A DNA stretch of 64,000 nt, taken from Kondoa subrosea. Lineage: Eukaryota. A program made the position numbers and the translations under genes. The DNA is taken from NCBI GenBank assembly GCA_039545335.1, contig BCIN01000002.1, positions 2,448,678-2,512,677 of the forward strand, written 5' to 3'. Under the pieces are notes generated by a model. That model was not told the origin of the DNA. It made no database searches and saw nothing but the letters and a program-made list of their open reading frames with translations. Shown here piece after piece: positions 23,382 to 64,000 of this stretch. Numbering within the stretch: the first letter of the stretch is position 1; every line of letters starts with the position of its first letter.

Positions 23382-25399
23382 TCATTGAAACACATCCCGA
23401 GCTTTGACGGGCACAAAGACTTTGGTACGAGCGGGCGATGCTGAAGGGAAAAGACCATAATGACGAGATTCGCAAGACTTGTTGAAAGCTGCCCAATCGT
23501 TGATGGCTAGATGACACATGAGCACAGTCTGAGTGAGAGAAGAGCGACTTGACTCACGTGGTAAATCGACTTGCATTCCAGCTGAATTGAACAAAACAGG
23601 TCGCCATTCAGGTTTCTCGAGGCGAACAGCAGAATTGCCTGTTTGTGATCTCGAGGAATGCGAAAGTTGGAAAGATGCAACTCACGGAAATGCTGGACCA
23701 AAGTAGGCAGACCCTGATCTTTTGCGAAGCACATCTGCACCAACTTAGCGCTGTGATCTGGTGCCCAGTGAGTTTCAAGTTTGGTTTGAGCGAAATGAAG
23801 TAGAGCAGCAGATGAGGTGAAGTTGACGAATGCGTAGCCTACAGGACCGTAAGCTACAAGGACAAGCACAATGTAAGACAGACCTAGATTGTTTTCAGTC
23901 TTGAAATCGATGCGCAGGTACAAGAAGTTGTATTGACCAGGAACGACAGAATCAAGGAAGTCGAGCAAGTTTTGTTGACTCATACGATTAGCAATGTTCT
24001 GTGGTAAGAGGCGGTCAGGACGGAGCAACAGCCTTGCTAGATTGAACAGCCAACCCACCTTGAGCATAACAGTAGTTCTCTTTTCTTGACCACTTGCAAT
24101 TCTGTCCAAGTCAAAGTGATTGTAATGTGGTACATCTTCCGTAGTGCGCAAACTACCAAAACGTTCTGAACTTTTCTGCTCGACTGATTTGGATAAAACA
24201 GGTGGTGAGCTGAAGACATCGCGATCCGGTTGAGCAAAGATGTGAGGAGCTGCGCTGAAGCGAAGAGGCAATGGGGAATCTGCCGTAGATCGTTGACGCG
24301 AAGGCGATTTCGTTGGATCGCCATGAATGCTACGGAAAGCTGGTGGTGAAAATGGATCGCAAGTGTCGACATCGGTAAAGAAGTCGAAGAGGGATGCGAT
24401 AGGTTGAATGCCATTGATCAACATCTGATGCAAGTGAGCGACCGCTTGATGAGCTGCTCGATCATCAAAAAATTCGACAATGAAAGCGCTCGATTCGGTC
24501 AAAGTGATTGACTTGACAGCACCAAAGCTTGAAGTAGCTCGACGAATCATGTGAGCATCTGCTCCAGCAATGTTTTCGATGCGAATGAAGCCTTCACAAG
24601 CTGAAATAATTTTCGAATGATGATCCTCAGGAATGAGCTGGCAGACATTTCAGCATCACGCGATAAGAGCGGAAGAATGACATACATTGAGCAGCTCGTT
24701 ACGAGACAAATGAGTCAAAGCGAGTTCCAGACCAGCTTCAGAAAAACGATCTTCCATTTCGAGTTTGGACATCACAGCTGGGATGAGATTGATGTCATGC
24801 AAAGCCAGAGCAATCCATCCTTCTTTAGCAAGCTGATCAACATAGACGCGCATATCGCCGTACTCATTCTGTGAGAAGCAAGATGAGCAAAAAACACATA
24901 ATTATAGCTCTGCGACAAGTCACCTGCAAGATCTGACGCAGAAAGTTCCGATTGATGTGCTTGTCAACTGATCTGATGACAATGTAACGCTTATTCGAAG
25001 CGAACGCAGCAGACAACTGAGCGGAAGAAGAGGGTGTTGCATGGGCTTGAGTGAATGGCGAAGAGTGAGATGCTAAGCGACGGTGAGGAGGTGTGTATGA
25101 TGCAGAAAGACCAGGTGATAGATGAGCAACTCGTTGCTTCTTTGGACTTCTAGATGCTGGTGGTGTCAAAGGGGAAAGAACTGGATTGAAAGTCTTGTTC
25201 AAAGGTCGACCTGGCGTGTAAGGTGGTGTGTCTGGCAAACGGAAGGTAACGGAAGATTGCCTTTCAGTTGGAGACTGCGGTGCATGCGATCAGCTTGCAG
25301 ATGAAGGGTAGTAAGAAAGGAACTGACGTTCAAAGACATTTCAGCCAAGGTAGTCACAAAGACATCATGATTGTTTTCAAAGATCGGAGCAAGCGACAT
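23382..25399 (-). CDS. Mei2-like RNA-binding protein (RRM + C-terminal RRM_2)
   Basis: FIVEFFDDRAA RRM; RTTVMLK|NIANRM..YNFLYLRIDFKTENNL|GYAFVNF is the Mei2 RRM3 signature; 3' end approximate. Confidence 0.85.
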
Positions 25400-26100
25400 G
25401 ATAAGCTAAGAGAGCAAGCGCTGGCCGGGTTCAAGTGAAGGACAAGCTGTGCTGAGAAGTGAAAGTGCGAATGCCAGACAGATTGCTGAAACAAAAGTAT
25501 GAAAGCAGGAGCAAGAGGCGCAAGAATGAAAGCAGAGGAGATTTATAGTGGCACCGGCATCGCAAGAAGGATCAAAACAAAGCTCTTCGAGATGAAAGGA
25601 TCTACATTTTCAGCCTTTCACGAGAATGTAGACCACTTTAGGCGAAGAAAAGCGCATCATTAGAGTCGCGCTGATTCTCTCTATCGAGTGGTACTATTTC
25701 TGTTCTTGAGTATGGCCAAATGAAGGAGAGCATTGACTTTGTTGTTTTCGACATCGTCGGAACTCGTTGACGCGCTCGTCTTGGTGCATCTTCTCGATAG
25801 AAAGTTATCTTCTTGATGAAATCCTGCCTTACGCTCTTGTTCAAGTTGGTGCAAAGTCACTGTCCGGAATAACAGTTGGCTTTGAGGCCGACCGCATGCA
25901 TTTTTTGTCCACTCCGCCTCTCTTCCTCTTTCCAATTTCATCTATCCGCTACAGTACAAAAGATTCAACCCTGCCATGCTCTGTCGAAGCTAGAAATTGC
26001 CAACACCTGTCGCTTGCATTTCGAAATCCATCCTTGATATCTCCTGACCGAAGGCTTCGTTTTGGGCTATAATCTGCTGCTCGCTTGGTCTCAAACAAGC

Positions 26101-47793: not shown

Positions 47794-49652
47794 ATGGTTT
47801 CCTCTTTCGTTTTTGCGCTGGTCGCTTTCACTTTGTTTCATCTGCAATTGATTGCAGCTCATATGGTACGCGATGCTCGCCCTAAGTCGATGCAATTCTG
47901 ATGAATATCGACTGTAGAGCATTTTTACGCCCGCGATGTGTGCGTTTGCACCGTCGATTCTGTCCTGACAGTCATGAAGCTGATCTGCAAAATCTAGATG
48001 GGTGGATGAATTGGTCTGTCCGCCTACCAATACAGTGCTGGCATTTATTGATATACTGAGATAGGCCTGATGAACCTCAAACGCCGCTGGTCAATCTGGT
48101 CAGTCGAGCGCAAACATTGAGAACCGCTATATTATGCTAATTTGTAACTTGCAGCCTTTCGAGCAATGGTGGTTCAGAGGCTACGTATGCTCTACAGTCT
48201 CTATGGGAGGCAAGCACTAATAGATTCGCAGACCAATCTACCGACTGGCGGAAAGGTGCGTTGCGCAGATCTACTTCAGGTGGGCCTGAAAGTGATAGAA
48301 CTGAATCATACAGGTCGAGGAACTTACCGCTGGCGGTGTCTTTACTGCTGAAATCGCTTGTCATGTCGCTTGGTAGGCTCTGGCGTTTTTCTGGGAAGTA
48401 CAACGGTCTTATAAAGCATTTATAGGACGAAATATGGCTCGAGAACAGCAGAAGCTGGTAAGAGCTCCCTTTGCAATGAAACAGCAGAACTCTCTGACAG
48501 CTCCCTCAGACGCGGCTGGACCGAGAGATGCTTGTCCTTCTGGTGATAACGCTGGACCTTACCATGCTTCACTCGATCCTACGCTTCCTCGTACGACTTG
48601 TCTCATATCCGGAGACAGTATCATGATACTCACTCGACCTTGTTTTAGTACCGGACATCAATGGAGTGTCGGGATGCGCGCTAGCTATTGCCGACGTAGA
48701 CGATGTGAAGAAAGTCACGATGGATGATCTGACTGTCTTCTCTGTCAACCGTAAGCTTACTTCTCTACAAAGCTACAGTACCTGAAAGACCAAAACAGAT
48801 ACTTGCGTTTACCGCAGAGCGACTGATTTTCATATTCCTGCTAATATGGTATCTTCTCGTCCTATCGTAATGCGCTCGCGTTGATCATGTCTGTAGCCAA
48901 AATGTACCGGAAGTAAATGTATCGTGAGTTATTTGTTTAATAGTACTGGTCGCTCACTTACGCTGTATGAAAAAGTGCGTTTGGCTATGGGAAGCCAATT
49001 ATGGACAGGCGAACTATTACATGACTGGCTTTGACTGTTCGATTCTTCAGAGCAAGACTGGTCTGCCTGCAATCGGCAAACCTCAAAGACCTCTTTGGAC
49101 AGGCAAATATCCCGTAGTCAACGGTATGTATATCATCCAGCATGGCACTGTAACGCACTTAAACTCCCATGCAGGACCAAAATTACCTTTCTATGCTTGT
49201 AAGCTCTTCCTGCGACATCGGGTTTCAAAACTCATCTGATTTATCAGACAACGACCGTTCGACAGCAGAATGGTTTGGAAATGACGCGAGACCAGGCTAT
49301 CATGAATCGTGTAAGAAAAGAATGCAGATTCCCTCTGATGATGTTGCTGATGCATAACTATAGACGGGTTCAAGGATGGAGCCCAAGATGACATTTTCGT
49401 AAGTTCGCTCCAGAAAAGGGATATCCTGGCTCATAGATGCGGTAGACTGGTGCAAGCACCGATATCAGCGTAGCTCTGACAGCTGGCCCCGCGATTTCAA
49501 CCACCACAAGTAGCTTGCAAGGCCCTGCTCTATCGACCCATTCCCGCGGAGCAAATCGCAACAGTTCACCACCAAGCCGTAATGCCGCAGTTCAACCAAG
49601 AGCAATTGGTGCTCACCGGCGACGTCAAGAAAGAAGCAACAGATACGCGTAA
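47794..49652 (+). CDS. AA14 lytic polysaccharide monooxygenase, copy 1
   Basis: Signal peptide then His1 (LIAA|HM), FEQWWFRG, AEIACH, GPYH, SGCALAIA..TVFSVN.TCV, CVWLW..YYMTGFDC, matching the recalled AA14 pattern; basic disordered tail. Confidence 0.82.
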
Positions 49653-49914: not shown

Positions 49915-51723
49915 ATGGTCTCTTCTTTTCTTTTTGCGCTGGCCGCAGTCTGCTCTTCTCAATTGGCAATCGCTCATATGGTCTGTCTAGCGCCCGATGC
50001 TGCTGTTTTTTTGCACTGATATGACAAAAATGCAGAGTATCTTTACTCCTGCCATGTGTTTGTGCATCCTTTATTGTTTCTGCTATATCTGATGTTTGGT
50101 TAGATGGTTGGCAAAACTGGTTCGGTCTTCCGCACATGCACCTCGACACTTTCTGATCAATCTCTTAGGCCTGACGAGCCGCAAAGTCCAATGCTGGATC
50201 TAGTGAGTCTTGGAGATCGAATTATGATCAGTATCTCAGATGTAAAAAAGCCTTTCGATCAGTGGTGGTATGCAACCCTGCGCGCCGCAGAGACTGCACA
50301 CTCTGACACTGATAGCTCAGGTTCCGTGGATATGTATGTCTAAAAAGCTTTCTCATGGAGTAAGAGCTGACGCAATGCGGCAGACGAATTTGCCAACCGG
50401 AGGGTTGGTAGAAGAACTTCCTGCTGGCGGGAAATGGACGGCGCAAATTGCCTGTCATGTCGCTTGGTCAGTGCTCAAGCCATACTGTTGGTTTGCGTCA
50501 CTGAAACAACCTGTACAGGACGAAATATGGTTCGAGCACTGCGATTGCCGGTTAGTTTCCTTCACCAACTGCAAGACCCCGCAGCTAACTTGGCTTCAGA
50601 TGCTGCTGGTCCTCGAGATGCCTGTCCTAGCGGAGACAATGCCGGACCGTATCATGCTTCATTCGATCCAACTCTGCGTTGTATGTCTCAATAAATTGTC
50701 CATCAGGCAAGAATCTGATCATGACTTTAGTGCCCGATATTAACGGCCTTTCTGGATGCGCTCTTGCTATTGCTGATGTTGACGACGTTTCGAAGGTCAA
50801 AATGGATGACTTGACCGTATTCTCTGTCAATCGTAATTTCATGTCTCTCAGTGCCATAGGAATGCCTGACAGAGTGACAGATACCTGTGTCTACCGTCGC
50901 GAAACTGATTTCGCCATTCCCGCAGCTATGGTGAGTCTTTATTTGGCATTATAGAGATATAGTTTCTGTCATTGATATTTTCAGCAGCCCAAATGTACGG
51001 GGAAGAAATGTGTCGTCAGTTGACCTAATTGACTGGTACGATGCCGACTCATCATATCTGTTCCAGTGCGTGTGGCTATGGCTGGCGAACTATGGCACGG
51101 GCAACTTTTACATGACAGGTTTTGATTGCTCTATACTTCAAAGCAAGATCAATCTTCCAGCAATCGGCAAACCTCAAAGACCTCTTTGGACAGGCAAATA
51201 TCCTGCTGTCGAAGGTATGTTTGCGCAATGGGTATAACCTGAAAGCGCTTATATGACTCTTTCAGGGCCCAAAATGCCTATCTACGCATGTAAGTCTGTC
51301 TTTGCGGGCTGTACATGGGGCTCACATGTTAGCATAGACAACGAGAGATCAACCGCGGAATGGTTTGGCAATAATGCGAGACCAGGCTATCATGAATCAT
51401 GTAAGTAACGAACTTCCTTGCTATGATTAACCCTGACCATATTACAGACGGATTTAAGGATGGCGCGCAGGATGATATATTCGTAGGTCGGAACTGTAAA
51501 GAAGGGAAGTTGACCGATGTCCTTGCAGACTGGTGCAATCCCTGGCAGAAGCTTCGACACGATTGCGGATAATGTTAGCAGGAACGCTACTACTATCAAG
51601 GAGGCTTCTTCTTTTCGCTGCAGAAAAAGACAGCGTCATACCTCATCCTCGAAACGGAACTACCCAATCCAGCGTCGCGCCAATGATTCACATCGTCAAC
51701 GTCAATACAAGAGAGGCATCTGA
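49915..51723 (+). CDS. AA14 lytic polysaccharide monooxygenase, copy 2
   Basis: MVSSFLFALAAVCSSQLAIA|HM, FDQWWFRG, AQIACH, GPYH, SGCALAIA, CVWLWLANYGTGNFYMTGFDC; tandem paralog of copy 1. Confidence 0.82.
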
Positions 51724-51940
51724 TTGTAAGCTACGGTAACGGAACAGGAGTTCGATATCGGTCGCCAGGGCAACTTGTACCCTTATTAGCATTAGGTTCT
51801 TTTCTTGCATCAATCATCACTTGTAGCTACTGGATAGCCTTCCGACTGAAGACACTGGTCAGCTAGCCGAGAGCGCAACAATTTTCTTTGCTCACAGCTC
51901 TCGCTTTTCAGCCGGATCAGTAGTCTGTCTACTTGCGAGT

Positions 51941-54900
51941 ATGAGACGCGAACCTCCTTCACCCATTCTGTTTTCTACACCTACGAGAGGCAAAGATAGG
52001 TCGCCTCCCAAAACTCTACCAACACTAGGTAAGCCTGTCTTCGCAAATGTCTCGCTTGGACCTTCTCATGCCACGGGGTGCAAACCAACGTCCGTTTTAC
52101 AAAACGGACATCAAGTACGTAATTTTGGCCATTTTCTGGCCGATGCCCATTCCCATATATAGCTTGTTCTACTAGATAGTACAGTTCTATCACGAATCCT
52201 TGGACATAGCTTCAGTCCCTCTCTAAAGGTAATCAGATATGCGATCTCGCGGTTTTCGAACACTGCATCTCTCTTTATTGAGTAAGCTACATATACTACT
52301 TGTTCGTAACATATCCAGCTGACCTAGTCTAACATTGCCTCGATCCTTTCCGCTAGCTCGTGCGCTTTCCCTTTGCCATCTTTGTTACGGTGCTTTAGAT
52401 ACTTCCGAAGAGCGGTAACATTGTAATGCCGGTTCGAAGGATCTCTTGACAATGTAAAACCAATCAGTCGCTTCTCCTTTGCCGCAGCCTCGATCTGCTG
52501 GAACAGATGCAGATCCCCTCCACTAGTAGCTGGGAATACTGGAACAAATCAGATGATGATATGTAGTCGCACTATATCATGCTAACCTTGTGCATCTGCA
52601 GGGGCCTTTTTCGAGCTGATAGGTCGTTCCTTTGTGTCGCGCTTCTTCTCGACAGGTAAGCTAGACTTTTCCATTCTTTCCGCAATTGTCACCTCCTCGG
52701 ATGCTCTTCGCTTTTGCCCTTTTGCAACATCGAGACCTTGATCTTTTGCTGCCCAATACGTATCAAGAGCAAGTACGAGCGAGGTAGAGTGGAACATGAT
52801 AGATAGCAAAATGTCTTCCTTGCACTGAGCCTTGCAAAGACTGCTACGTAAAAGCTGGAACTGCTCTTCTGCTTCCTCATCTACATTCGCGCATCTTTTG
52901 ATGGTTATGATCCGTGGTAATGTAGAAAAGCGAGCCAAGAATGCGACTAGCTTGTTGGACTTGACATGTTTCAGACGTTGTACACAGCTCATCAAGTCTT
53001 CAAGGTTTCGACGCCCTTCTGCAGCCGACGGTCTCTTCTCCAGAGGTGCAAGACTCCACTGCACAATGTTGCTAAACAGTTGGCTGACTGAAGAATGAGG
53101 TATTTCATTTCGCATTTCGGTAATTTTGTAAAAGGCAGTACAAAAGAGCCGGAAGACGACAATATTGACCGACTTCTCAAATTGTGGTGGATAGTAGCAC
53201 ATTCTGAGTGAATCATGCTCTTCCTTCAAGCTGGAGATGGTGTTCGAAACTCCTTGTACATCGCAAATACAGAGCAAATCAGACGGAAGCGGTTCCTTTC
53301 CTAAGCGTTTGAGAGGGGTGATGTATATGCCTTCGCGAATAGGATTTGCTGGTAGTGTGGATCGAAGACTCTTCTTCTCGAGAATGTTTGCAAGATGCTG
53401 CCTATGCGTGATGGAAAGATTGCTGCGACGGATAATCAACATGGAAAGCACTGATACTCATGACGTACTCTAAATCCAGCTGGATACTTTGCATGTCTTG
53501 ACAATTTGCTACTGAGTGGGTCAGACCATTGTCAAATAACAGCAGAACAGCGTACGACAAGTAGGTCCAACATCATCTGGCTCGGAGGAAAGAAAGACAA
53601 ATGTCGTTTCTCTAGAGCATTCTAAGGACCAACATTAGACATGCAGATAGCACATCGTTCTTCAGCCTACTCTGACAACAGCGGGAGTTATGAAATTTCG
53701 CGAAATCCACCTTGAGCGTTACAGAAGATTGTGACATCGGAATAATCGCGCACTGTAATCAGTCTGAGCTCAATAATACTCATGTGTGCGCATCAAGATC
53801 TCCTTACCGAAAGGAAGCTGTTGTAGTTTGAAGGTAGCAACAAGCGAAAGCTGATTCTTTAACTCTGAGCTTGATGTATTCAGAGTCACCGATAGGTACA
53901 GCAGGCAGGCGCAAAATGCAGCAAGTTTAAGACTTCGAACCGGAACTTGATGAAAGATGGTTTGAGAGAGAGCTTGATTCCGTTACGCGACAGCCGCCTC
54001 TTGACAAACTCGAACACGACATATAGCTAGAGAGAACCATTTCTAGACGCGCTGAATGTGCTAGGCTCGTGTTGTACCAAGGGGCTGCGCAAAGTCGTCT
54101 ATCTCCCTAGGCGTCTCAACTTGCTGCCATTCATTCTTGATTGTCTGCGTAGTCCCTCATAACCGCCAGCGGCCCAAGGCTGGCTGGAGCCAACTTCTAG
54201 TCGTCTTCCTTTTTCAATCATTTCCTTGTGTATACTTATTCGCTGCTGCGTATTTCTGGTGCTGCCTGTCCTCCTTGAAGCTGATGGCAGAAATCACGCA
54301 GGCCATATAGACCTGCTTCTTCAGGTGACATGCTGGTATCTCCATAAAGCTAGAAGCTTTTCTTTTCGAACGGCCTGCTTTCCGTTGCACTGACTTGGTA
54401 GAAATTTCAGGTGTTGACCTGTACCATGATCGGACTCGCTGACAGATCTCAAGACTCTTTGCCTCTCTTCTTTTATTGCGCTCCTATTGGAGTGTCACAA
54501 GCGCGTCTGCAACAGTCAGACAGTCTCGCCGAAGACATCGGTGTATCGCTTGAATCAGTTATAACACGCCTGCTACATTTCTACGTCGTCTGCAAGACCA
54601 AGGTCTACCTTACTGCGTTCTGCATCCTGTATCTTTTCACTTGGACATCATCGTATTTGATTATCTTCCCTGCCACCATCCTACCACGAGCTCTACGAGT
54701 ATTCTACCACGAGCTCTATGAGTATTCGTGTCAAACACAAGCATATGGACCAGACTGACCAAGTTCAGCAGCTTCATTAATCTCAGGATTCAACCGGTCT
54801 CCATGATTGATCAATCTTTGCTGTTTTCTCGTTCAATCCAATCATAAGGCGTATATTCAGAGCATCGCTATTATCTCCAGTAATCATCTTGAGTTTCAGA

Positions 54901-57373
54901 TGACCTCAATAATTTGCCACCTCAGAAATCTGGCGCGAGAGTTCTCAGGTGGCAAAACATGTCTCAGATTTGACTGAACCTACAATGCTGTACAGCGTGT
55001 TGTGAGGCTCTAGAAAGACACCTAGCAAATAGGAATGAGTTATAGGTGAAGAGAGAACAGGATCAAGTGATGCTTACTGTACAAATTGACTTGCTCGAGA
55101 GTCTAATCGCTATGGAAGCATGAGAAAGAAGAGATAGCATGCTTAGTTGTGCTCAGCCACGCTATACAAAGCGACCTGAGCAGATCAGGAGCTTGTGAGG
55201 AGTGTTCTCGCATCAAGCTCGACTTTGGTCTCCAGGTCTGCTGAGCAATAAATCCGGCTGACAGACTAGGACACGATTGTATGGACGCAAAAAAGCAGAT
55301 ATATCAAGATTCCACGAGAAATGCATTTTGAATATCAAGCTGTGAACGCACGCAAATAAGAGATTTCTGCAGACATGCGGCTACGAGTGCTGAGGATGAA
55401 AGCTGATACAGCAGTAAAACGAGGAAAAGCAAGGGTGCTTTGTCAAAAGAGTTGAAAGTATGTTCACGGAGTCAGCTGCTGTCTCCTCAGGCAAGTTTCA
55501 TGACGATAGCAATCTCGAGATATCATTTGATTATAAGATGACACTCAATGAGTGACATTCTTCAAAGGCCAGAGAAGATACGAGAACGAATAGTGTGAGA
55601 ATGAGGCTAAAGAGAGAAACATACACAAGACAAGCAAGCAATGTGCATAGAAAGCAGTTAGCGAGAGTTATAGGAGCGCTATGCACGACTTGGTCAGCTG
55701 TAGTACTAGCTATAGCTCTTTGTAGTGCACATGTACTTGTAATGGATGTTTGGAGTCATAATTCCTACGAAAAATGTCTTAGCCGAAATTCATGAAAGTG
55801 GGAGCTGGCTCATTCGCTCCAGCTCCCTTTTTCTTTGTTTGCCGACAGTCGAGTCCTATACCCTCACCTATCAACGAGCAAGATGCCATAGAGAGCTCTG
55901 ACTTGCCCTGGACTCTGCTCGTACACTGAGCACATGTGCACGTGAAAGTCCAAAAGTTGGCCAACTTTTGGATTGAATGGCTTTTCATTGACCGCCGTCA
56001 AGTGTGGTGGCTCATGCTTCCGTATTCGGACTTCTGACTCTCTTTAACAAACATTCCTCTGTTCTTGCGCAATCTTAGAGTCCTGCGACCTAAGAGAAAG
56101 AAATCTGCTGATCCGGTCAACCTGGCCTTACTCTATGTCTGCCTCTAGAACTCAACTCTGTGTCTGCCTCTGGATCTACAGGTGAGCTACTGCCTATAGT
56201 CTTATGTCAAGCAATGACAGGCATCGCTGACTGCCAAGCTATCTCAGTTTCATCTATTGCCCTGGATCTTTGGATTAGAAGCCTGTAAGTGATCCGGGCT
56301 GATTGGTTTGTCAATTGTTAAACTAAACGATCTTTGATATCCGCAGGTTTGCTTCAACTCTCTCAAATGGGGATGATCTCTTCGAAACTCTAATTACTTT
56401 TGCTGCAAGTGCCTATTGCCCTACTTCACGCAGCTGATCTTTGCTTCCGTTCTCAATTCGACTAAACGTTCTCTTCCCAGACCTTTCATACCTCGTGCGG
56501 ATCTTTTTGGTAACGCTGATGATGTGGTAACGCTGATGCTGTGGTCAAATATGCTTTGGAAGGTCACGATCGCGGCGTAATTGAGACTTCTTTCTATCCT
56601 CTCTTCCTTTGATTGGTGCGCAGGCTGAATATTATTATTACGGCTCAGTAAGTCGGCTTTGCTTTCTTGTAATTTACAGATTCGTGTACTTATTCCTTGT
56701 CTGAATTAGCGGACTGCCAGAGCTACTGCTCTGATTCAGATTCAGCGGCGAAAGATCTATACCTTATAGACTTTGTGAAATATTGGTACACCTTTAAGGT
56801 CAGACTCTTCCTTTAAGGTGAATCTAATTTTGCTCTGGCTTGCTTTGATCGTCGATGCTGACATTCTGCTCATAGGAAATGATGCTTTGACGACTCTCTT
56901 ACTTGAAGAGAGCTATTGCTGTTGAGTATGATCAGGAAGAGCAAGAACAACGGATGTCACTTTGGGTTCATCTCAATTCAATACGATCATAGTTGTACCT
57001 AGTCTGCTAATCATAGCTTACGATAGCTAGACCTGTTGACGAGACTTCTCTTGTAATCCATATGTCAAGCGGATCGCGAAAAACGCGACTTCTATTCTGA
57101 CGATTGTTTATTCAGATACCACGACTTGCTTAGTTTGCGGTCTTACTGGGTGAGTGCTCTGTACATACCTAAGCGCTACTAGGCTGACTCAGTCTCTTGC
57201 AGTGGAATTCGGTAGCTTCCCTTCACATCTCACGCTGAGCTTGGACTCACCAACTTTTGGCTGCTACAGTAGCTTCTGGTGGTTGGAAATCAGTACTTCT
57301 CCTATTGGATCAGACTGCTGTGTGCTCTTGGCATGGCGGGCCTTGAGCTGGGATAGGAGCAGGAGCAGAAGAG

Positions 57374-57414
<41 letters not shown>

Positions 57415-60400
57415 TACATCACGAGATTGGTCACTGCTGGCCCTCTATACCTTCTTCTATAGTTGCGAAGTACAACTCTCAGCTTTACCTAGTGTATCAC
57501 TCCTTTCCGAAAAGCTTGAATCACCATCTTCCTTGAATCTCGTCAGCTCATTGCAAAGTCCATATCTCTACCTCTATCAAAATGGGCTGGCGAGGTGCTC
57601 ATGCTGCCGTTCGCCAATTGGCACATGTCAATACACAAGTGTTGGATCGCGCAACATCTTGGGAAGAAGCTCTACGAAAGATAGAGGAGCAGATCAAATG
57701 CCAGCCCTGTAAGTTCCTCTTAGAAGCTGACATGACTGTTCTAACGGCAATCGTCGAACAGGCGCAGATATTGATGGCACTGGTATTCTTTGGGGTCCAA
57801 TAAATCGACTGAAACGAGATTGCTCGTATTTTGGGCCGTTCTTACACCTACATCAGCGGCGTTTATGGTTTCCTACTGAAGAAGCTTCCAAAGTCTGGCT
57901 AAAGAAACAATCTTTCACCTTCGCTGGCGACTTAGCTGATCGTCTGTCGGCAATTGCATCGCAAGTCACCATGACTTTTGATGATCGAGACAAGTCATCT
58001 AATGCTCTCGGCAAACTACATACGCATAAAGATCGCAAGGCAATGACGCGCCGAAGGAAGCACCTCGCTACGCAAGCATTGAAAGAAGCAGTCATTGTCG
58101 CAGCTCACTTGGAAAGGCTTCTGCTGCAAGATCGGGGTAAAAAATTCAAGGACAAGATCAATCGTGCCATGGTATCAACATTGAGAAGTCGTCTTCGTCA
58201 TCTTTTCAGCACATTTCATCGGAACTGCGATGCTTACTTCGACTTTCCTTTCGCGCCATCGGACTTCGAAGGCGACTCAGCAAGGTTATTGCTAGCAGCA
58301 TTTCCCCCATCAACCTCTCTTCACCTAGAACAGCCAGCTTCTTTGCACAGACCTGCTTCCTATGACTCTGACGCTATCGCCTTCGAAAAATCTTACATAC
58401 ATGCTAACTCTGAGCTGGTCAACTGCAGAAGCCAAATTATCCTCGTCCGATCTGGAGATGAGGCGGACAACACCATTGTCAGGCTTCAGAGCGCCCGAAT
58501 TCAGTCTGGTCTAGCAAAGGCAGCTAGTACTGTCATTATAGCCAACGACTCCGACTTCTTCATTCTTCGACACTCCGACATCTACCGATTCGTTCTTAGT
58601 CAAACAAGCGTCAAATTTCTACCAAACGCAGCTGTCCAGCAATACTCAATCCTTGACAAAGTAGCTCTCGAAGACACATTCGCATGGCCAGAAGAAGCTT
58701 GGCAAGCTCAACAACTAGCTCTTCTGGCTGGTCAAGACCTCACTCGCGGTAAAGGTCTGCCAGGTTTTGGAGTCAAGACTTTGCTTCCGTTGCTTGATTA
58801 CATGGACGTGAGCTGTCCCGTTTATACTTGTAGTGATAAACTGAATATCATACTAGCGAAATCCCGAGGTCACCTTGGAGAACTTCAGAGAGTTATGTAA
58901 CGAGGAGATAGCTCAAATGCCAAAATGGAAGAAGCTCAAACAACAATCCAAATGGCACAAATCCCTGATATTGCTCGAAGATGAAGCTTTCCGTGCCGAA
59001 TTCAAGGAGGCTGTTTTGGTTCTCACCTTTCTGTGTCACTCCTTCGTCTCGCCTTCCTCTCTTCCAAGTGATGTTGACGCCGATCAATCAATATCTATAC
59101 CTGAAACTACCTTCGGACCCCATCTTAAACGCAACCTTATCTGGCCCTTCACCTTCTCTTTTGAACATCTTCTTGATCACCCTGATACAGATCCAGAACT
59201 CCTCTTACCAGATCATCCTGCCAGCATAGGCGTTTCTGATCGGCCGTCCAAAGCTCAACAGACCCTCGAGTCGAAGCAAATAGGAAGGATGCCATCTCTT
59301 CGTCCTGAGAAACGAAAAGAATCGAAACCACCGCAATGGTCAGCTCTCAGAATGGAGCGGAAAAGAAAGAAGAAGACGAAAGTGGATTACGATCAGGTCT
59401 TCGCTGAAGCAGCACGCTACAACAAGCACAATTACCCGGAAGCAGCTGCGAAACATAAGGTCGCAAGTCTGGCTGCGCAGAGAAAGAGAAAGTTGGCAGA
59501 AGAGCTTGGCGAAGACTGGAGTGATTATCGAGACACAAGCGTTGAAGAACTGGAAGCGGATGCTGGTCTCTTTGCTGAACAGGCAATCGATTATCTGGAG
59601 GGACAGGAGCAAGAGGAAGAATCACTTGAGACAGCAACTAGCCAGGCGAAGGGCAAAGGCAAGAAGAAAGAAAATGAGAAACCAGTCAAGAAGCCTAGAA
59701 ATCTCCTAGCAGCTTACGTTCCTTCAGTCACCATACGCGGCGCTTGGACACTTCTGCGTCAACATGTCCTTCTCGCCAATTCCCCGTACCAGACACCGCT
59801 GTTCGAAACCACTTCCCTAGTCTTTCTCTGTCAGCAAATCGGCCTCTCTTCACTTCTGCTGTGTGTAAACTATTGTCTTTCGCAAGCCATGGTCTCTGAG
59901 AACGCTGCACTGCTCGAACGATACTCTGATCCAGATCAGCTTGTCAAAGTCATTTTATGCATCGCTCAAGTTATTACTCTGGCGAAGAAGCCGACCGATG
60001 AGGTCTTCAACCAGAATCCACAGCAGTTCAAATTCTACTCCGATCAGCTCAAGAAGTCTGCCAGGTTTCAGACTTTTTTCGAGAATAAGATATATGCCGA
60101 TGCCTTTATCGACGCTTTGGAACCAACCGTTCTAGCTAGAATCCGAGAATACGCAGAAGTGGATCCCCTCATCATACAATCGGTTCAGTTGCTTCTGCTT
60201 GATGACCTACCTCTTTTACCTTATATCGGTTCAGCAAGTGATATGTGGGTTGATGTATCGACGAAGATAGCCAGCAATATCACGACTTCGGCCAAAGAGG
60301 ATCTACAAGATTGCATCAAACGAGAAATCTTGAGGTTTATCGGCAACATCAAACCGTCAGATTCTGGTTATCGTGAAATCAGGAAGGCTCTCAAGTTTGT

Positions 60401-63342
60401 CAAGAATACTAGTTTCAACCTTGTATGCGAGAGTCAACTGGCGCATTGGCATGCAGGCGAAGCGCAAAAGATACCGATTGATGCCTCAGCTCGCTTGATC
60501 AAGGCTCTCCGGCATCGCAACAAGCACAGTCAGAATCTCCCAGCTGTAGCCAATATCATCATCAAGCATGTCATCCATCCTATCTTAGCCATTAGAGATC
60601 AGGCCATCAACGTCAACGGTCTGACGGAATTGGATGTCCGCAATCTTATCAGCAACCGCCCAGTATCGCTCTTCCGCTGGCGACATATTATGATGCAGCA
60701 TCAAGGCAAAGTGCAGGGCAATATGATAGTTAGCCTATTCTTCATTTCAATTGCGCTAGCAATACTGATACTTCTGATAGGAATTTCTCCCCTCCTTTCT
60801 GCCTTTTAATGTGCATGGACTTCACCGCATGGTATTCTATCCAAGAGAAGTCGCTCAGAATTGTGTCGAGTGGCTGAATGATGAATTCTTCCCTCGCTGT
60901 GTTGGTGTTTTGGAAGCAAGTGCTGAAGAAGATCCAATGCCTGTAGCTGGATCAACCACTGCCTCGTCTTTCGCAAGTACAGCAGCGCAACATTCAGATC
61001 CTTACGCAACGCTAAAGTCAACCTTTCCGCAACAAATGGCCGGAATTCTCGATCAGCTTACTTGTCTGCAACACAATGATAAATCGGCACTTCCTCAGAA
61101 TCCAAATCAGAAGAAGCGGAACTCAGATTCGATCGGGCGCAAGCTTCTCCGCAGCGCAATGGGAGCTGCACCCGCAATTCATGTTCAGCTGAAAGAAGAC
61201 TTTCTGGCAGCAGCTGAACTTTTTGCGAGACAAACCGCTCAGCACATTGTGCAGAAAGATAACATGTCATCCGGTTCTCTCGATGGCAACCATCTTGCGC
61301 TCGTCGACTATGTCTTCAACACGAGCATACTTCCAAAGTACTCTGTGGCTACTGGCAGCTTCCAATTTGATGGCTTTGCGATAGCTATGAATTGCGTGGA
61401 CGTCTCTCGAGGTATCATGCCAGCTCTAAATGGCGCGACCTCCATCAAAGATCAATTCCTTTCGGTTTGCAAACAGATTTCATCACCTCTCTTAAGCAGT
61501 CATTTTGCCGATAAAATCAAATGGTCCGGCAAGACGCATCTTATCACACCTACATCATCTGCAGATGACAACCTTCAAGACAGTGTACCCAAAGTCGAAG
61601 TTGAGATCAAACCGACTTACTGTCTAGCAAGTGAAGGTCAATGTCGGTTAGACGGTATGACCCGACAATACGTCAAGTTGGCTTTCATCACCAAAGAGAA
61701 AACTAGAAATGGTGTACCAATATCTTTGAAGAAGATGAGCGATAAGACTTTGGACAAGTTTAGAGAATATGTGCTGGATGGAACTATGGTACGCCAGCTA
61801 ATATACATTCGCAGTAATCAGGTCTCATCTCGACGCAGGATATTGATGAACAGCTTTCGGTGCAGCCTGCGGATATGCATGTGGACGATAAAGATGCAAC
61901 AGAGGAGCAACCGGAACGGAAAGAGCCTACTGCGGACATGAGAGTCGCCAAAGCACTAGAAGGTATCGCAGTTGTCGGTCTGGATCAAGGTCATGCTTAT
62001 CCTGCTGCTTGGTGGATCAAGACTTTCAATCAGGCAGGCAACCCTGTTCAGCGGCGGATATTGCAATCGCCGAAGTACCTGCAAGAACTGATCAAGATCC
62101 ATTGTCGAAATCACACCGCTGCACGGAATGCTTTCGTAATTGATCTCGCCTGGTTGAAAAAGTACAATGACTCGGTACAAGAGAATTCTCCAAATTCAAG
62201 GGTCGCATTCGCTCAAAGAACGATACACACTTTCTTTCGAACATCTCGCGTCGTCCGGAACGAGGCCTACCTTTTGCGCAAGCGCCAACAACAAGCTTAT
62301 GATCGAATAGCTGCGCAAGTACTTGAAGCTTCCGGGGCAAGAGCAGGGCGCTTCAATCATTCGGAAGGCACTGCTAGCACTTACACAGAGCCTAGGATCA
62401 AAGTCATCTTCGCTTTTGGCGCGGATTGTGGTCCAGCGCAAGGTATCAAGACGCATTCAGCAGACTTCCGAAATGGCATTCTTCGGGCAGTAGCATCAGA
62501 AGTTGGTCATCAGAACGTTGATGCTATATGCATGCTGGTGAATGAGGCGTTCACTTCACAAGTATGTCCAGATGCATCGTGTTTGCGAGCACCGGGAGAG
62601 GATTGGATGGATGCAAATACAGAGAGTGTCGGCTTCGATTGGATACGATCTTCGTATGTGCACTCAAACGTTGGTGATTCTCACTAAGTGGTCTATCGCA
62701 GCTTGCACAAACCACATTTCGTCGATTCTGGTAACAAGTGCCAGAGAGTTCTGCAATGCGAACAATGTCGGCGAAAATACAACCGCGATCTGGCGGCAGC
62801 ATGCAACATTGCCTTTGTCGCTTGGCATTGGCTGGTTTGGGGTTGTCACCCATTTGACCGAAAAGAAGGTAAAGCATACAATATGTTTGCGAGATTTTTC
62901 TGACCAAGATCACAGATTTCCCGGTTCAGTCTATTAATGCAACCGATGGTGCTTAGCACCGCAGTATCGTGCGTTGACAAACTAACAATTATATCAGAGC
63001 TGATTGTTTTGTTCTACTTCCTTCTCTTATCCTCCTCACCTCTCTGACAATCTCGTTTCTATACGCTTTGCAACACGTAAGCACGTCTCGGCTGGGGTAT
63101 CAACCTGTCTCACTCCATGACAGGATTACCCGGATTTAACGGACATTATGTCCCTTGGTAAAAACGGACTTCGATTTGTACATAGTGTGCCGTGTCCAGA
63201 AACTGCAGTTGCAAAACCTCATGTTCGCCTTGCATCCCAAGGCGTTGCTATATCTCAATTACCTGACCTGAGGGATCTGGAATTCAATATGGGCAGAGGG
63301 AGATCAGGGACAGTTTCGTCGATTGAGTCTTTTGAACTTTGA
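51941..63342 (+). CDS. Small host gene (76 aa when spliced) whose intron is interrupted by the element; exons 51941-52028 and 63200-63342
   Basis: Donor GTAAGC at 52029 and acceptor TCCAG at 63195-63199. Removing the element plus one TSD leaves a 52-nt intron and the in-frame product MRREPPSP...PTL-E-TAVAKPHV...SGTVSSIESFEL*. Confidence 0.65.
52072..52120 (+). repeat. Left terminal inverted repeat with GTCCGT/ACGGAC subterminal motifs
   Basis: Starts with CAC and contains the inverted repeat GTCCGTTTT-AC-AAAACGGAC; matches the reverse complement of 63139-63187. Confidence 0.85.
52324..53737 (-). CDS. Element-encoded ~408-aa protein, Cys-containing N-terminus and C-terminal SAP-like motif
   Basis: Five exons join in frame (1227 nt by manual count); N-terminal CCQKC...CLANC; C-terminal YNVTALRKYLKHRNKDGKGKAHELAERIE resembles a SAP helix-extension-helix. 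Confidence 0.6.
54681..54726. repeat. 23-bp tandem duplication
   Basis: CTACCACGAGCTCTACGAGTATT / CTACCACGAGCTCTATGAGTATT, one mismatch. Confidence 0.9.
55800..55827. other. GC-rich hairpin near the centre of the element's intergenic region
   Basis: GGGAGCTGG-10 nt loop-CCAGCTCCC perfect 9-bp stem followed by a T-rich run; function unknown. Confidence 0.6.
56130..56179. repeat. Imperfect 25-bp tandem duplication
   Basis: ACTCTATGTCTGCCTCTAGAACTCA / ACTCTGTGTCTGCCTCTGGATCTAC. Confidence 0.75.
56491..56620 (+). pseudogene. COP1: Captured fragment of coatomer alpha (COP1) WD40 region
   Basis: After removing one copy of a 17-bp duplication (56509-56542) it reads ADLFGNADAVVKYALEGHDRGV..SFYP(T)LPLI, matching recalled alpha-COP DLFG..DAVVK.VLEGHDRGVNWA.FHPT.PLI; frameshifted. 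Confidence 0.75.
57374..57414. repeat. (AACAGC)n microsatellite, ~7 units
   Basis: Read directly from the sequence. Confidence 0.95.
57582..62956 (+). CDS. XPG/FEN1-like PIN+H3TH nuclease fused to Fanzor (TnpB-like) RuvC/zinc finger, ~1,690 aa
   Basis: Introns 57709-57761, 58808-58856, 60729-60780, 61789-61838, 62654-62701 and probably 62869-62915 (47-53 nt, GT-AG) join all ORFs in frame. N-terminal MGWRG, DIDG, TFDD, EAD, NDSDF, AGQDL..KGLPGFGVKT. C-terminal FQFDG, VVGLDQG, VNEAFTSQVCPDASC, CEQC..YNRDLAAACNI. Confidence 0.88.
62957..63207 (+). ncRNA. Candidate Fanzor omegaRNA (scaffold in right end, guide from right flank)
   Basis: Lies between the Fanzor stop and the right TIR. Stems: GGGTA(63095)/TACCC(63127), CCTGTC(63104)/GACAGG(63119), GGACA-TTA-TGTCC (63141-63153). 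Boundaries inferred by analogy only. Confidence 0.45.
63139..63187 (-). repeat. Right terminal inverted repeat (5'-CACTATG... on minus strand)
   Basis: Ends ...TACATAGTG followed by the TGC TSD; contains two ACGGAC motifs on the plus strand. Confidence 0.85.
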
Positions 63343-63511: not shown

Positions 63512-64000
63512 CTCATCAAGAAGACAAGTTCCTATCAAGAAGATGCACCAAGACGAGCGCGTCAACGAGTTCCGACGATGTCGAAAACAACAAAGTCAAT
63601 GCTCTCCGTCATTTGGCCATACTCGAGTACAGGAATAGTATCGCTCGATAGAGAGAATCAGTGCGACTCTAACGATGCGCTTTGCTTCGCCTAAAGTGGT
63701 CTACATTCTCGTGAAAGGCTGAAAATGTAGATTCCTTTCATCTCGAAGAGCTTTGTTTTGGTCCTTCTTGCGATGCCGGTGCCACTATAAATCTCCTCTG
63801 CTTTCATTCTTGCGCCTCTTGCTCCTGCTTTCATACTTTCGTTCCAGTCTGGCATTCGCACTTTTACTTCTCAGCACAGCTTGTCCTTCACTTGAACCCA
63901 GTCAGCGCTTGCTCTCTTAGCTTATCATGTCGCTTGCTCCGATCTTTGAAAACGATCACGATGTCTTTGTGACTACCTTGGCTGAAATGTCTTTGAACGT
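63512..64000 (+). repeat. Inverted duplicate of 25326-25820 (upstream region and start of the mei2-like gene; ATG at 63927), continuing past the window end
   Basis: CTTATCATGTCGCTTGCTCCGATCTTTGAAAAC... and ~400 bp upstream match the reverse complement of 25326-25820 with scattered substitutions. Confidence 0.92.

What the first reader, a model, noticed from the sequence alone, without database searches (positions are those of the whole stretch)
51941..63342. The element sits in an intron: the empty site rebuilds a 52-nt intron and a 76-aa host ORF
Seen: joining 52071 to 63191 gives GTAAGC...CTCATGC|CGTGTCCAG, a 52-nt intron matching the local intron size. It links MRREPPSP...PTL in frame to ETAVAKPHV...SSIESFEL*. 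This independently supports the element boundaries to the base. Inference: the insertion falls between a possible branch point and the acceptor, and probably disrupts this small gene. The predicted guide would cover the 3' splice site of the uninterrupted allele, a homing-like arrangement.
Basis: partly seen in the sequence, partly recalled or inferred. Interest (0 to 1): 0.7.

Follow-up and report, generated by a model that had tools for sequence, protein, structure and literature searches.

The report
Fanzor transposon splits small fungal gene
An 11-kb jumping element carrying an RNA-guided DNA cutter most likely landed inside a tiny intron of a small fungal gene and broke it, which is an ordinary outcome for a known kind of element, though a possible second intron inside the cutter's guide RNA would be new if real.

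Summary
Observation confirmed. Removing the element (52072-63187 plus one TGC copy) rebuilds a 52-nt intron and a 76-codon ORF. A gene finder trained without this region calls exactly that gene. The intron outscores 114 of 145 local predicted introns, both exons score like local coding DNA, and held-out random joins match it in 3 of 1,400 trials. So the host gene is probably real (~0.85), although no homologue was found.

Two claims need correcting. The intron does not fix the ends 'to the base': 189 alternative joins work as well as a median intron. The ends rest on the inverted repeats, the TSD and a second terminus ending at 63187. The guide covering the empty site is generic Fanzor anatomy, not intron homing. 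The element separates branch point from acceptor, so it probably knocks the gene out.

Verdict: new member of a known kind (EnSpm-type ends, Fanzor1-like cargo). One untested lead is a 47-nt spliceosomal-intron candidate inside the predicted omega-RNA. Two word look-ups found no earlier scan note of this on other DNA; other readers noted the same element here.

The parts
51858..51911 (+). Candidate 54-nt 5'-UTR intron of the host gene (GTCAGC donor, GCTCAC branch, CAG acceptor), ending 29 nt before the ATG
   Evidence: Score 9.3 nats; 1 of 500 shuffles and 1 of 25 pre-ATG regions of predicted genes reach it. Predicted only.
51941..52028 (+). Host exon 1 (29 codons + 1 nt), Pro/Ser/Thr-rich
   Evidence: coding log-odds +6.2 in this frame, -6.1 and -14.5 in the other two
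52029..52071 (+). 5' part of the host intron: donor GTAAGC (52029), branch motif CTCAT (52065-52069), left TSD copy TGC (52069-52071)
52072..63187 (.). EnSpm/CACTA-type element, 11,116 bp, CAC...GTG ends, imperfect terminal inverted repeats, no transposase recognised
   Evidence: TIR 34 of 50 identical with the right end at 63187, against 9-18 of 50 for 19 other end positions; the 3-bp TSD fits only there (I1). A second record of the same sample leaves the match exactly at 63187. No transposase family among 82 ORF pieces of 52072-57760 or the Fanzor-gene ORFs.
52324..53737 (-). Cargo gene, predicted 4 introns, about 407 aa, C-terminal SAP-like domain
   Evidence: Spliced ORF (prediction); Pfam SAP E 0.0042, below the curated cut-off
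57582..62903 (+). Six-exon gene, 1689 aa without internal stop: XPG/FEN-like acidic motifs near the N-terminus (recalled resemblance only) and a Fanzor-like C-terminus with D1400, E1587, D1652
   Evidence: five introns of 48-53 nt, scores 6.4-8.2; Pfam PF07282 E 1.5e-4 on the last exon, below cut-off; Atlas score 0.95-0.97 to viral and eukaryotic clusters, some carrying PF07282
63062..63190 (+). Predicted omega-RNA scaffold region, including the right TIR and right TSD; 5' start is a guess
   Evidence: Position by analogy (PMC10432273 section 7). Folding is weak: z -1.7, 17 of 300 shuffles as good, start chosen after looking; no Rfam match
63077..63123 (+). Candidate 47-nt spliceosomal intron inside the predicted omega-RNA (GTAAGC donor, TCTCAC branch, CAG acceptor); the acceptor lies in a predicted 6-bp hairpin, 63104-63109 with 63119-63124
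   Evidence: 7.9 nats, above 92 of 145 local introns; 3 of 500 shuffles, but also 3 of 24 post-stop regions of host genes reach it; hairpin pair probabilities 0.95-1.0. Lead only.
63188..63190 (+). Right TSD copy TGC
63191..63205 (+). Predicted guide (about 15 nt): the last 9 nt of the host intron with the acceptor AG (63198-63199) and the first 6 nt of exon 2
   Evidence: Inference from Fanzor1 anatomy; no second match with under 3 mismatches in the window
63200..63342 (+). Host exon 2 to the TGA stop; an in-frame alternative acceptor ends at 63208
   Evidence: coding log-odds +3.6 in this frame, -8.1 and -17.7 in the other two

Best explanation
A small, real, lineage-restricted host gene (76 codons, one coding intron, probably one 5'-UTR intron) was hit by a cut-and-paste DNA transposon with EnSpm/CACTA-type ends. 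The element inserted 3 nt after the branch adenosine and 9 nt before the acceptor of the 52-nt intron and duplicated TGC. Shown in the sequence: ends, TSD, intron signals, intact exons, an intact Fanzor-like ORF. Inferred (likely): the 11.1-kb insert separates branch point from acceptor, so the allele no longer makes the 76-aa protein. Unspliced read-through would give 29 host codons plus 44 more and stop at 52162. Both exons are still intact, so the insertion is young relative to pseudogene decay. Inferred by analogy (about even odds that it is active): the Fanzor transcript runs through the right end, takes about 15 nt of flank as guide, and cuts the empty site inside exon 2, about 14-21 nt past the TAM as for SpuFz1 and GtFz1. 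Repair from the filled chromatid or homologue then restores or copies the element. The filled junction shares TGC with the empty site but differs at positions -4 and -5 (G,T against A,C), so self-protection needs a TAM of at least 4 nt, one that includes the predicted branch adenosine. With no transposase recognised, excision would need a partner in trans; the second terminus in this sample is a candidate. This is transposon homing that spreads a probable knock-out allele, not intron homing.
For: Gene model, splice scores and nulls. Ends and TSD, and a second terminus that stops at 63187 at another locus of the same sample. Poor branch point before 63199 and 63208 in the filled allele, and best host-donor partner an 87-nt AAG intron summing to about -4.7 nats. 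Longest of 145 local predicted introns is 117 nt, against 11,171 nt needed. Fanzor-like motifs, with E seven residues before the first Cys. Literature: 5'-CAC..GTG-3' with a 3-bp TSD is given as consistent with EnSpm in fungi (PMC12730594 passage); EnSpm is listed among Fanzor carriers, and both homing modes are described (PMC13565253).
Against: No homologue of either exon. Exon 2 gave only two unrelated bacterial-type chance hits (and 28/29) and blanks; exon 1 gave a blank. The gene finder is my own, trained on unvalidated predictions, and its nulls draw overlapping pieces from only 12.4 kb; one held-out fold gave 3 of 700. The true left half alone explains part of the score (77 of 1000; 6 of 400). 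The predicted omega-RNA folds no better than modestly. No sequence match to a solved Fanzor for the RuvC exon; the last exon matches TnpB/Cas12f-like chains only at E 0.6-0.9. Nuclease activity, TAM and guide length are untested.
Confidence: 0.7

Rival explanations
1. The intron and ORF are a chance by-product: the element landed in intergenic DNA and the join happens to read as a gene.
For: No homologue in five searches. The protein is short and low in complexity. 18 of 1500 intergenic positions lie in an equally good intron candidate.
Against: Donor, branch, acceptor, length, both exon frames and a second upstream intron candidate agree. Gene-level nulls were 0 of 1500, 3 of 700, 0 of 700 and 0 of 700. 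The coding score sits at the median of local genes. Orphan small genes are expected where no close relative is held.
Confidence: 0.13
2. The gene is real and still works in the filled allele, because the whole element is spliced out as an 11,171-nt intron. The element would then be a tolerated, spliceosomal counterpart of an IStron, and the intact exons would reflect selection, not youth.
For: Donor 52029 and acceptor 63199 are both intact and outside the element. Both exons are undecayed.
Against: The branch point stays on the far side of the insert. The best substitute scores -2.4 nats, with only 3 of 145 local introns lower. Local introns run 44-117 nt. The insert holds two spliced genes in opposite orientations.
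Confidence: 0.08
3. There is a real spliced transcript here but its product is not this 76-aa protein: a non-coding RNA, a UTR, or a form using the in-frame acceptor at 63208 or further 5' exons.
For: The alternative acceptor scores 7.4 nats, and the upstream intron 51858-51911 keeps the same frame open. No homologue.
Against: No ATG lies between the upstream gene's predicted stop (51723) and 51941 on the + strand. Both exons have frame-specific coding bias.
Confidence: 0.09

Closest known systems
Fanzor1 in TIR DNA transposons, e.g. SpuFz1 of Spu-1 (PMC10432273, sections 7-8 and passages read)
   Same: Nuclease ORF followed by a right inverted repeat; flank as predicted guide; D/E/D motifs with E close before the zinc-finger Cys; a CA dinucleotide precedes the left TSD here, as it precedes the left IR in Spu-1 (one insertion only).
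   Different: 11.1 kb against about 2.1 kb; CAC..GTG ends with a 3-bp TSD against TA; 1689 aa with five introns and a long N-terminal extension; apparently single copy; no activity shown.
Fungal EnSpm/CACTA elements (CMCT clade; PMC12730594 passages read)
   Same: 5'-CAC..GTG-3' termini, 3-bp TSD, short subterminal repeats (AACGGAC at 52103, 63138, 63163).
   Different: No transposase recognised; the two TIRs are only 68% alike; cargo is Fanzor-like rather than TET/JBP.
Transposon restorative and non-restorative homing by TnpB/Fanzor (PMC13565253 section 6 part 1 read)
   Same: The guide matches the empty site, and the element's own end replaces the TAM-side sequence in the filled allele.
   Different: Not tested here. 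The empty site is part of a probable host gene, so cutting and repair would spread a loss-of-function allele.
IStrons: group I intron plus IS605/IS607 TnpB (PMC10690162, abstract and outline read)
   Same: A TnpB-family element in a host gene at a splice boundary. If 63077-63123 is a real intron, splicing and guide-RNA structure would compete in one transcript.
   Different: No self-splicing ribozyme found (no Rfam match). The element does not supply its own splice sites to restore the host mRNA. Any splicing here would be spliceosomal.

Membership tests
Local spliceosomal intron | GT donor, branch motif, YAG acceptor, length and branch distance like the genome's introns | tested here: met
   9.3 nats, above 114 of 145 predicted local introns; 52 nt against a median of 53; branch distance 12 is the mode
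Local spliceosomal intron | Junction reads in RNA | not testable with these tools
   See Tried and rejected
Host protein-coding gene | Frame-specific coding bias | tested here: met
   9.7 total; 57 of 121 coding pieces at or below it, 2 of 708 intergenic pieces at or above it
Host protein-coding gene | Homologue with a conserved intron position | tested here: inconclusive
   No true homologue; no close relative's genome was available
EnSpm/CACTA | CAC..GTG termini with TIRs | tested here: met
EnSpm/CACTA | 3-bp TSD | tested here: met
   TGC at 52069-52071 and 63188-63190; fits only the 63187 end among 20 positions
EnSpm/CACTA | CMCT-type DDE transposase | tested here: inconclusive
   No transposase family among 82 stop-to-stop pieces of 38 aa or more or the larger ORFs. 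Pieces were scanned unspliced, so a diverged or decayed gene could be missed. Filed as non-autonomous by ends only.
Fanzor1 | RuvC D/E/D with E about six residues before the zinc finger | tested here: met
   D1400, E1587 (first Cys at 1594), D1652 by motif in the spliced ORF; rule from PMC13565253 passage. Motif-level, not structure-level.
Fanzor1 | Similarity to TnpB/Fanzor families, and Fanzor1 rather than Fanzor2 | tested here: inconclusive
   PF07282 E 1.5e-4, below cut-off; Atlas 0.95-0.97; no PDB match for the RuvC exon; model unusable, pLDDT 40; no tree built
Fanzor1 | Structured omega-RNA at the right end, extending 14-15 nt into the flank | tested here: inconclusive
   z between +0.55 and -2.06 over 16 windows; no second Fanzor-bearing copy for covariation
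Fanzor1 | TAM-dependent RNA-guided cleavage | not testable with these tools
   Needs biochemistry
IStron or intron homing | Element is removed at RNA level so that the host gene is restored | tested here: not met
   By prediction only: no ribozyme match, no usable branch point before the host acceptor in the filled allele

The most novel reading that the evidence does not exclude
The element couples its RNA-guided nuclease to the spliceosome. The 47-nt candidate intron at 63077-63123 lies inside the omega-RNA scaffold. Either its removal yields the mature scaffold (82 nt, near the 75 nt of SpuFz1; z -2.7 against -1.7 unspliced, 3rd best of 70 equal-length deletions), or the hairpin that hides its acceptor switches the transcript between guide RNA and spliced mRNA. 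That would be a spliceosomal counterpart of the IStron antagonism. In its boldest form, a TAM that includes the branch adenosine (CATGC-like) would make insertions just after intron branch points the ones that are protected and spread. The second terminus also has a YAG 9 nt from its end, but that is one case and could easily be chance.
Probability: 0.12. Interest if true: 0.8.

Novelty: new member of a known kind. Interest (0 to 1): 0.4.

Why it matters
If the best reading holds, this is a natural Fanzor locus whose empty allele can be written down exactly and is a working gene. That makes a proposed but, in the papers I read, untested idea checkable in a eukaryote: that Fanzor restores or spreads its transposon by cutting the empty site, here at a possible cost to the host. 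It also predicts a TAM of at least 4 nt from sequence alone. Otherwise it is an ordinary transposon insertion into an intron in a genome that is 15% intron. The omega-RNA intron lead would matter more: my search for Fanzor + spliceosom + guide RNA + intron listed 6 papers, and by title and start of abstract none describes this.

Tried and rejected
No whole genome was held, so copy number and other insertion sites could not be surveyed. No RNA holder listed: no evidence either way on expression. The two DNA runs are one sample and may be the source of the window; their contigs show no joint from 52071 to 63191 and flat depth, which shows presence of the filled allele only, not absence of an empty one. 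Homologue searches for exon 2: word search blank (25-81 aa only); Atlas blank; metagenome scan gave 1 locus among 598 or more pattern matches, a long bacterial-type ORF of 773 aa matching on a few residues, rejected; library-wide phmmer gave 1 hit at E 8e-4, a 1457-aa repeat protein, rejected. Exon 1 within its read-through ORF: blank (40-128 aa only). The joined 76-aa protein was never searched as one piece, which lowers sensitivity. Fanzor RuvC part: 2146 word candidates, none at E 0.001 or better; viral scan reported 1 relative but returned 0 loci; N-terminal exon in viral contigs, none of 9 matches confirmed. PDB sequence searches were uninformative. The single-sequence structure model had pLDDT 40 and was not used for a fold search. 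Rfam: 0 matches. First gene-finder run merged genes through a wrong intron prior and was replaced. In one search my exon boundary for the last Fanzor intron was off by one, giving false stops; corrected. Rejected: an alternative right end at 63194 (CCGTG mirrors CACGG), because TIR identity there is 15 of 50 and no TSD fits. Rejected: splicing from element donors to the host acceptor, best score -1.1 nats. Literature: Fanzor + XPG gave 0 papers; supplements were not read for any paper and may list EnSpm-Fanzor families.

Full report
Setting. The window looks like a compact, intron-rich fungal chromosome: about 46% GC, introns of 44-67 nt, and a sample assembly of about 19 million letters. 'Basidiomycete yeast' is an earlier agent's wording that I did not test. 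No whole genome was held.

The element. It runs from 52072 (CACGG) to 63187 (reverse complement CACTA). The first 50 nt match the reverse complement of the last 50 at 34 positions when the end is set at 63187, and at 9-18 positions for 19 other ends. The flanking TGC repeat fits only that end. In both DNA runs, which are one sample and may be the window's source, one further record matches 63136-63187 and leaves into unrelated sequence exactly at 63187. That is a second terminus at another locus. It shares only the last 52 nt, so it may be a relative without this Fanzor. CAC..GTG ends with a 3-bp TSD are given as consistent with EnSpm in fungi (PMC12730594, passages). No transposase family was found in 82 ORF pieces. 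The cargo is a minus-strand spliced gene with a weak SAP match and a six-exon, 1689-aa ORF whose C-terminus has Fanzor-like D/E/D motifs. The XPG-like label for its N-terminus is recalled from motifs; Pfam and PDB searches did not support it.

The observation. Removing the element and one TGC gives a 52-nt GT..AG intron and a 76-codon ORF, as stated. To ask whether this is chance I trained a simple gene finder on window 1-51724, which excludes the locus (25 genes, 145 introns, all predictions). On the empty site it calls exactly this gene. The intron scores above 114 of 145 local introns, with typical length and the commonest branch-to-acceptor distance. An equal intron spans 18 of 1500 intergenic positions and 5 of 1500 random joins. 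An equal gene arose in 0 of 1500 in-sample joins, 3 of 700 and 0 of 700 held-out joins, and 0 of 700 joins of element DNA. Both exons have coding bias in the claimed frame, at the median of local genes. A second strong + strand intron candidate, 51858-51911, sits just upstream of the ATG. Against: the nulls reuse 12.4 kb of DNA; the true left half with a random right half reaches the intron score in 77 of 1000 and the gene score in 6 of 400; and five searches found no homologue of either exon. I put the gene at about 0.85 real.

Boundary claim. Splicing removes everything between 52029 and 63199, so the protein cannot report where the element ends. 5242 cut pairs give the same ORF, 189 score at least the local median, and keeping both TGC copies changes nothing. 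The true join ranks 11th-15th (tied), so the intron agrees with the ends within a few tens of bases. Base-level support comes from the TIR register, the TSD and the second terminus.

Effect on the gene. The branch motif stays left of the insert and the acceptor right of it. The best branch point before 63199 in the filled allele is weaker than in 142 of 145 local introns, and the host donor's best nearby partner is a poor 87-nt intron. The alternative, an 11,171-nt intron, is about a hundred times the longest local one and would contain two genes. Knock-out is the likely result. Intact exons then imply a young insertion. This is prediction, not expression data.

Homing. In SpuFz1 the omega-RNA is 75 nt of right-end scaffold plus 14-15 nt of flank (PMC10432273 section 7), and cuts fall 14-21 nt past the TAM for SpuFz1 and GtFz1 (section 8). 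A review states that the 5' TSD is part of the TAM and the 3' TSD part of the scaffold, lists EnSpm among Fanzor carriers, and describes restorative and non-restorative transposon homing (PMC13565253, passages and section 6 part 1). Applied here, the guide is about 63191-63205 and the cut falls in exon 2. The guide crosses the acceptor only because the insertion lies 9 nt before it; introns are 15% of local DNA. One sequence-level prediction follows: the filled junction has AGTGTGC before the guide match and the left flank ends in CTCATGC, so the TAM must reach position -4, the predicted branch adenosine. The arrangement is therefore the known one. It differs from intron homing and from IStrons (PMC10690162, abstract and outline) because nothing restores the host mRNA.

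A lead found on the way. A 47-nt + strand intron candidate, 63077-63123, lies inside the predicted scaffold. It scores above 92 of 145 local introns; 3 of 500 shuffles reach it, but so do 3 of 24 post-stop regions of host genes. Its acceptor is buried in a stable hairpin. Removing it leaves an 82-nt RNA with the outer stems intact and z -2.7 (4 of 300 shuffles), 3rd best of 70 equal deletions. The 5' start was chosen after looking, and 1 of 25 random element positions reached z -2.7 with a best-of-four choice. I give the intron about one chance in four of being spliced, and the functional coupling about 0.12.

Other reading. PMC3627910 (passages) has no mention of intron, XPG or EnSpm in its main text. 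PMC10530073 (passages) reports intron-containing Fanzor genes. Searches. No supplements were read.

Verdict. Observation confirmed; interpretation partly supported. A new member of a known kind, interest 0.4, with one low-probability lead worth a small-RNA experiment.

Noticed in passing
window 63077-63123 (+): 47-nt spliceosomal-intron candidate inside the predicted omega-RNA, acceptor hidden in a hairpin; removal gives an 82-nt folded RNA.
   Followed up: partly
window 63136-63187; loose ends: One other record in the sample shares the last 52 nt of the right end and stops at 63187; depth suggests one copy. Possible transposase donor or 'ghost'-like relative. Its flank has a CAG ending 9 nt from the terminus; ours ends 9 nt after the TSD.
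   Followed up: partly
window 63513-64000 (+) and 25326-25819 (-): 94% identical inverted duplicate covering the upstream region and first exon of an RRM_2 (mei2-like, name recalled) gene at 23382-25399; a second copy starts near 63928 and runs off the window.
   Followed up: partly
window 47794-49652 and 49915-51723 (+): Two tandem paralogues, each with about 16-17 predicted introns, very short exons and a hydrophobic N-terminus; family not identified.
   Followed up: no
window 57762-58807 (+): N-terminal part of the Fanzor-like ORF has acidic motifs recalling XPG/FEN nucleases; no database support and 0 papers hold both terms.
   Followed up: partly
window 56182-57202 (+): Cluster of + strand intron candidates (several at 8-9 nats) upstream of the Fanzor-like ORF without a long ORF; possibly a multi-intron 5' UTR or a decayed gene.
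   Followed up: no
window 54913-54956: 44-nt near-perfect palindrome inside the element.
   Followed up: no
window 57374-57415: AACAGC microsatellite inside the element, where contigs break.
   Followed up: no
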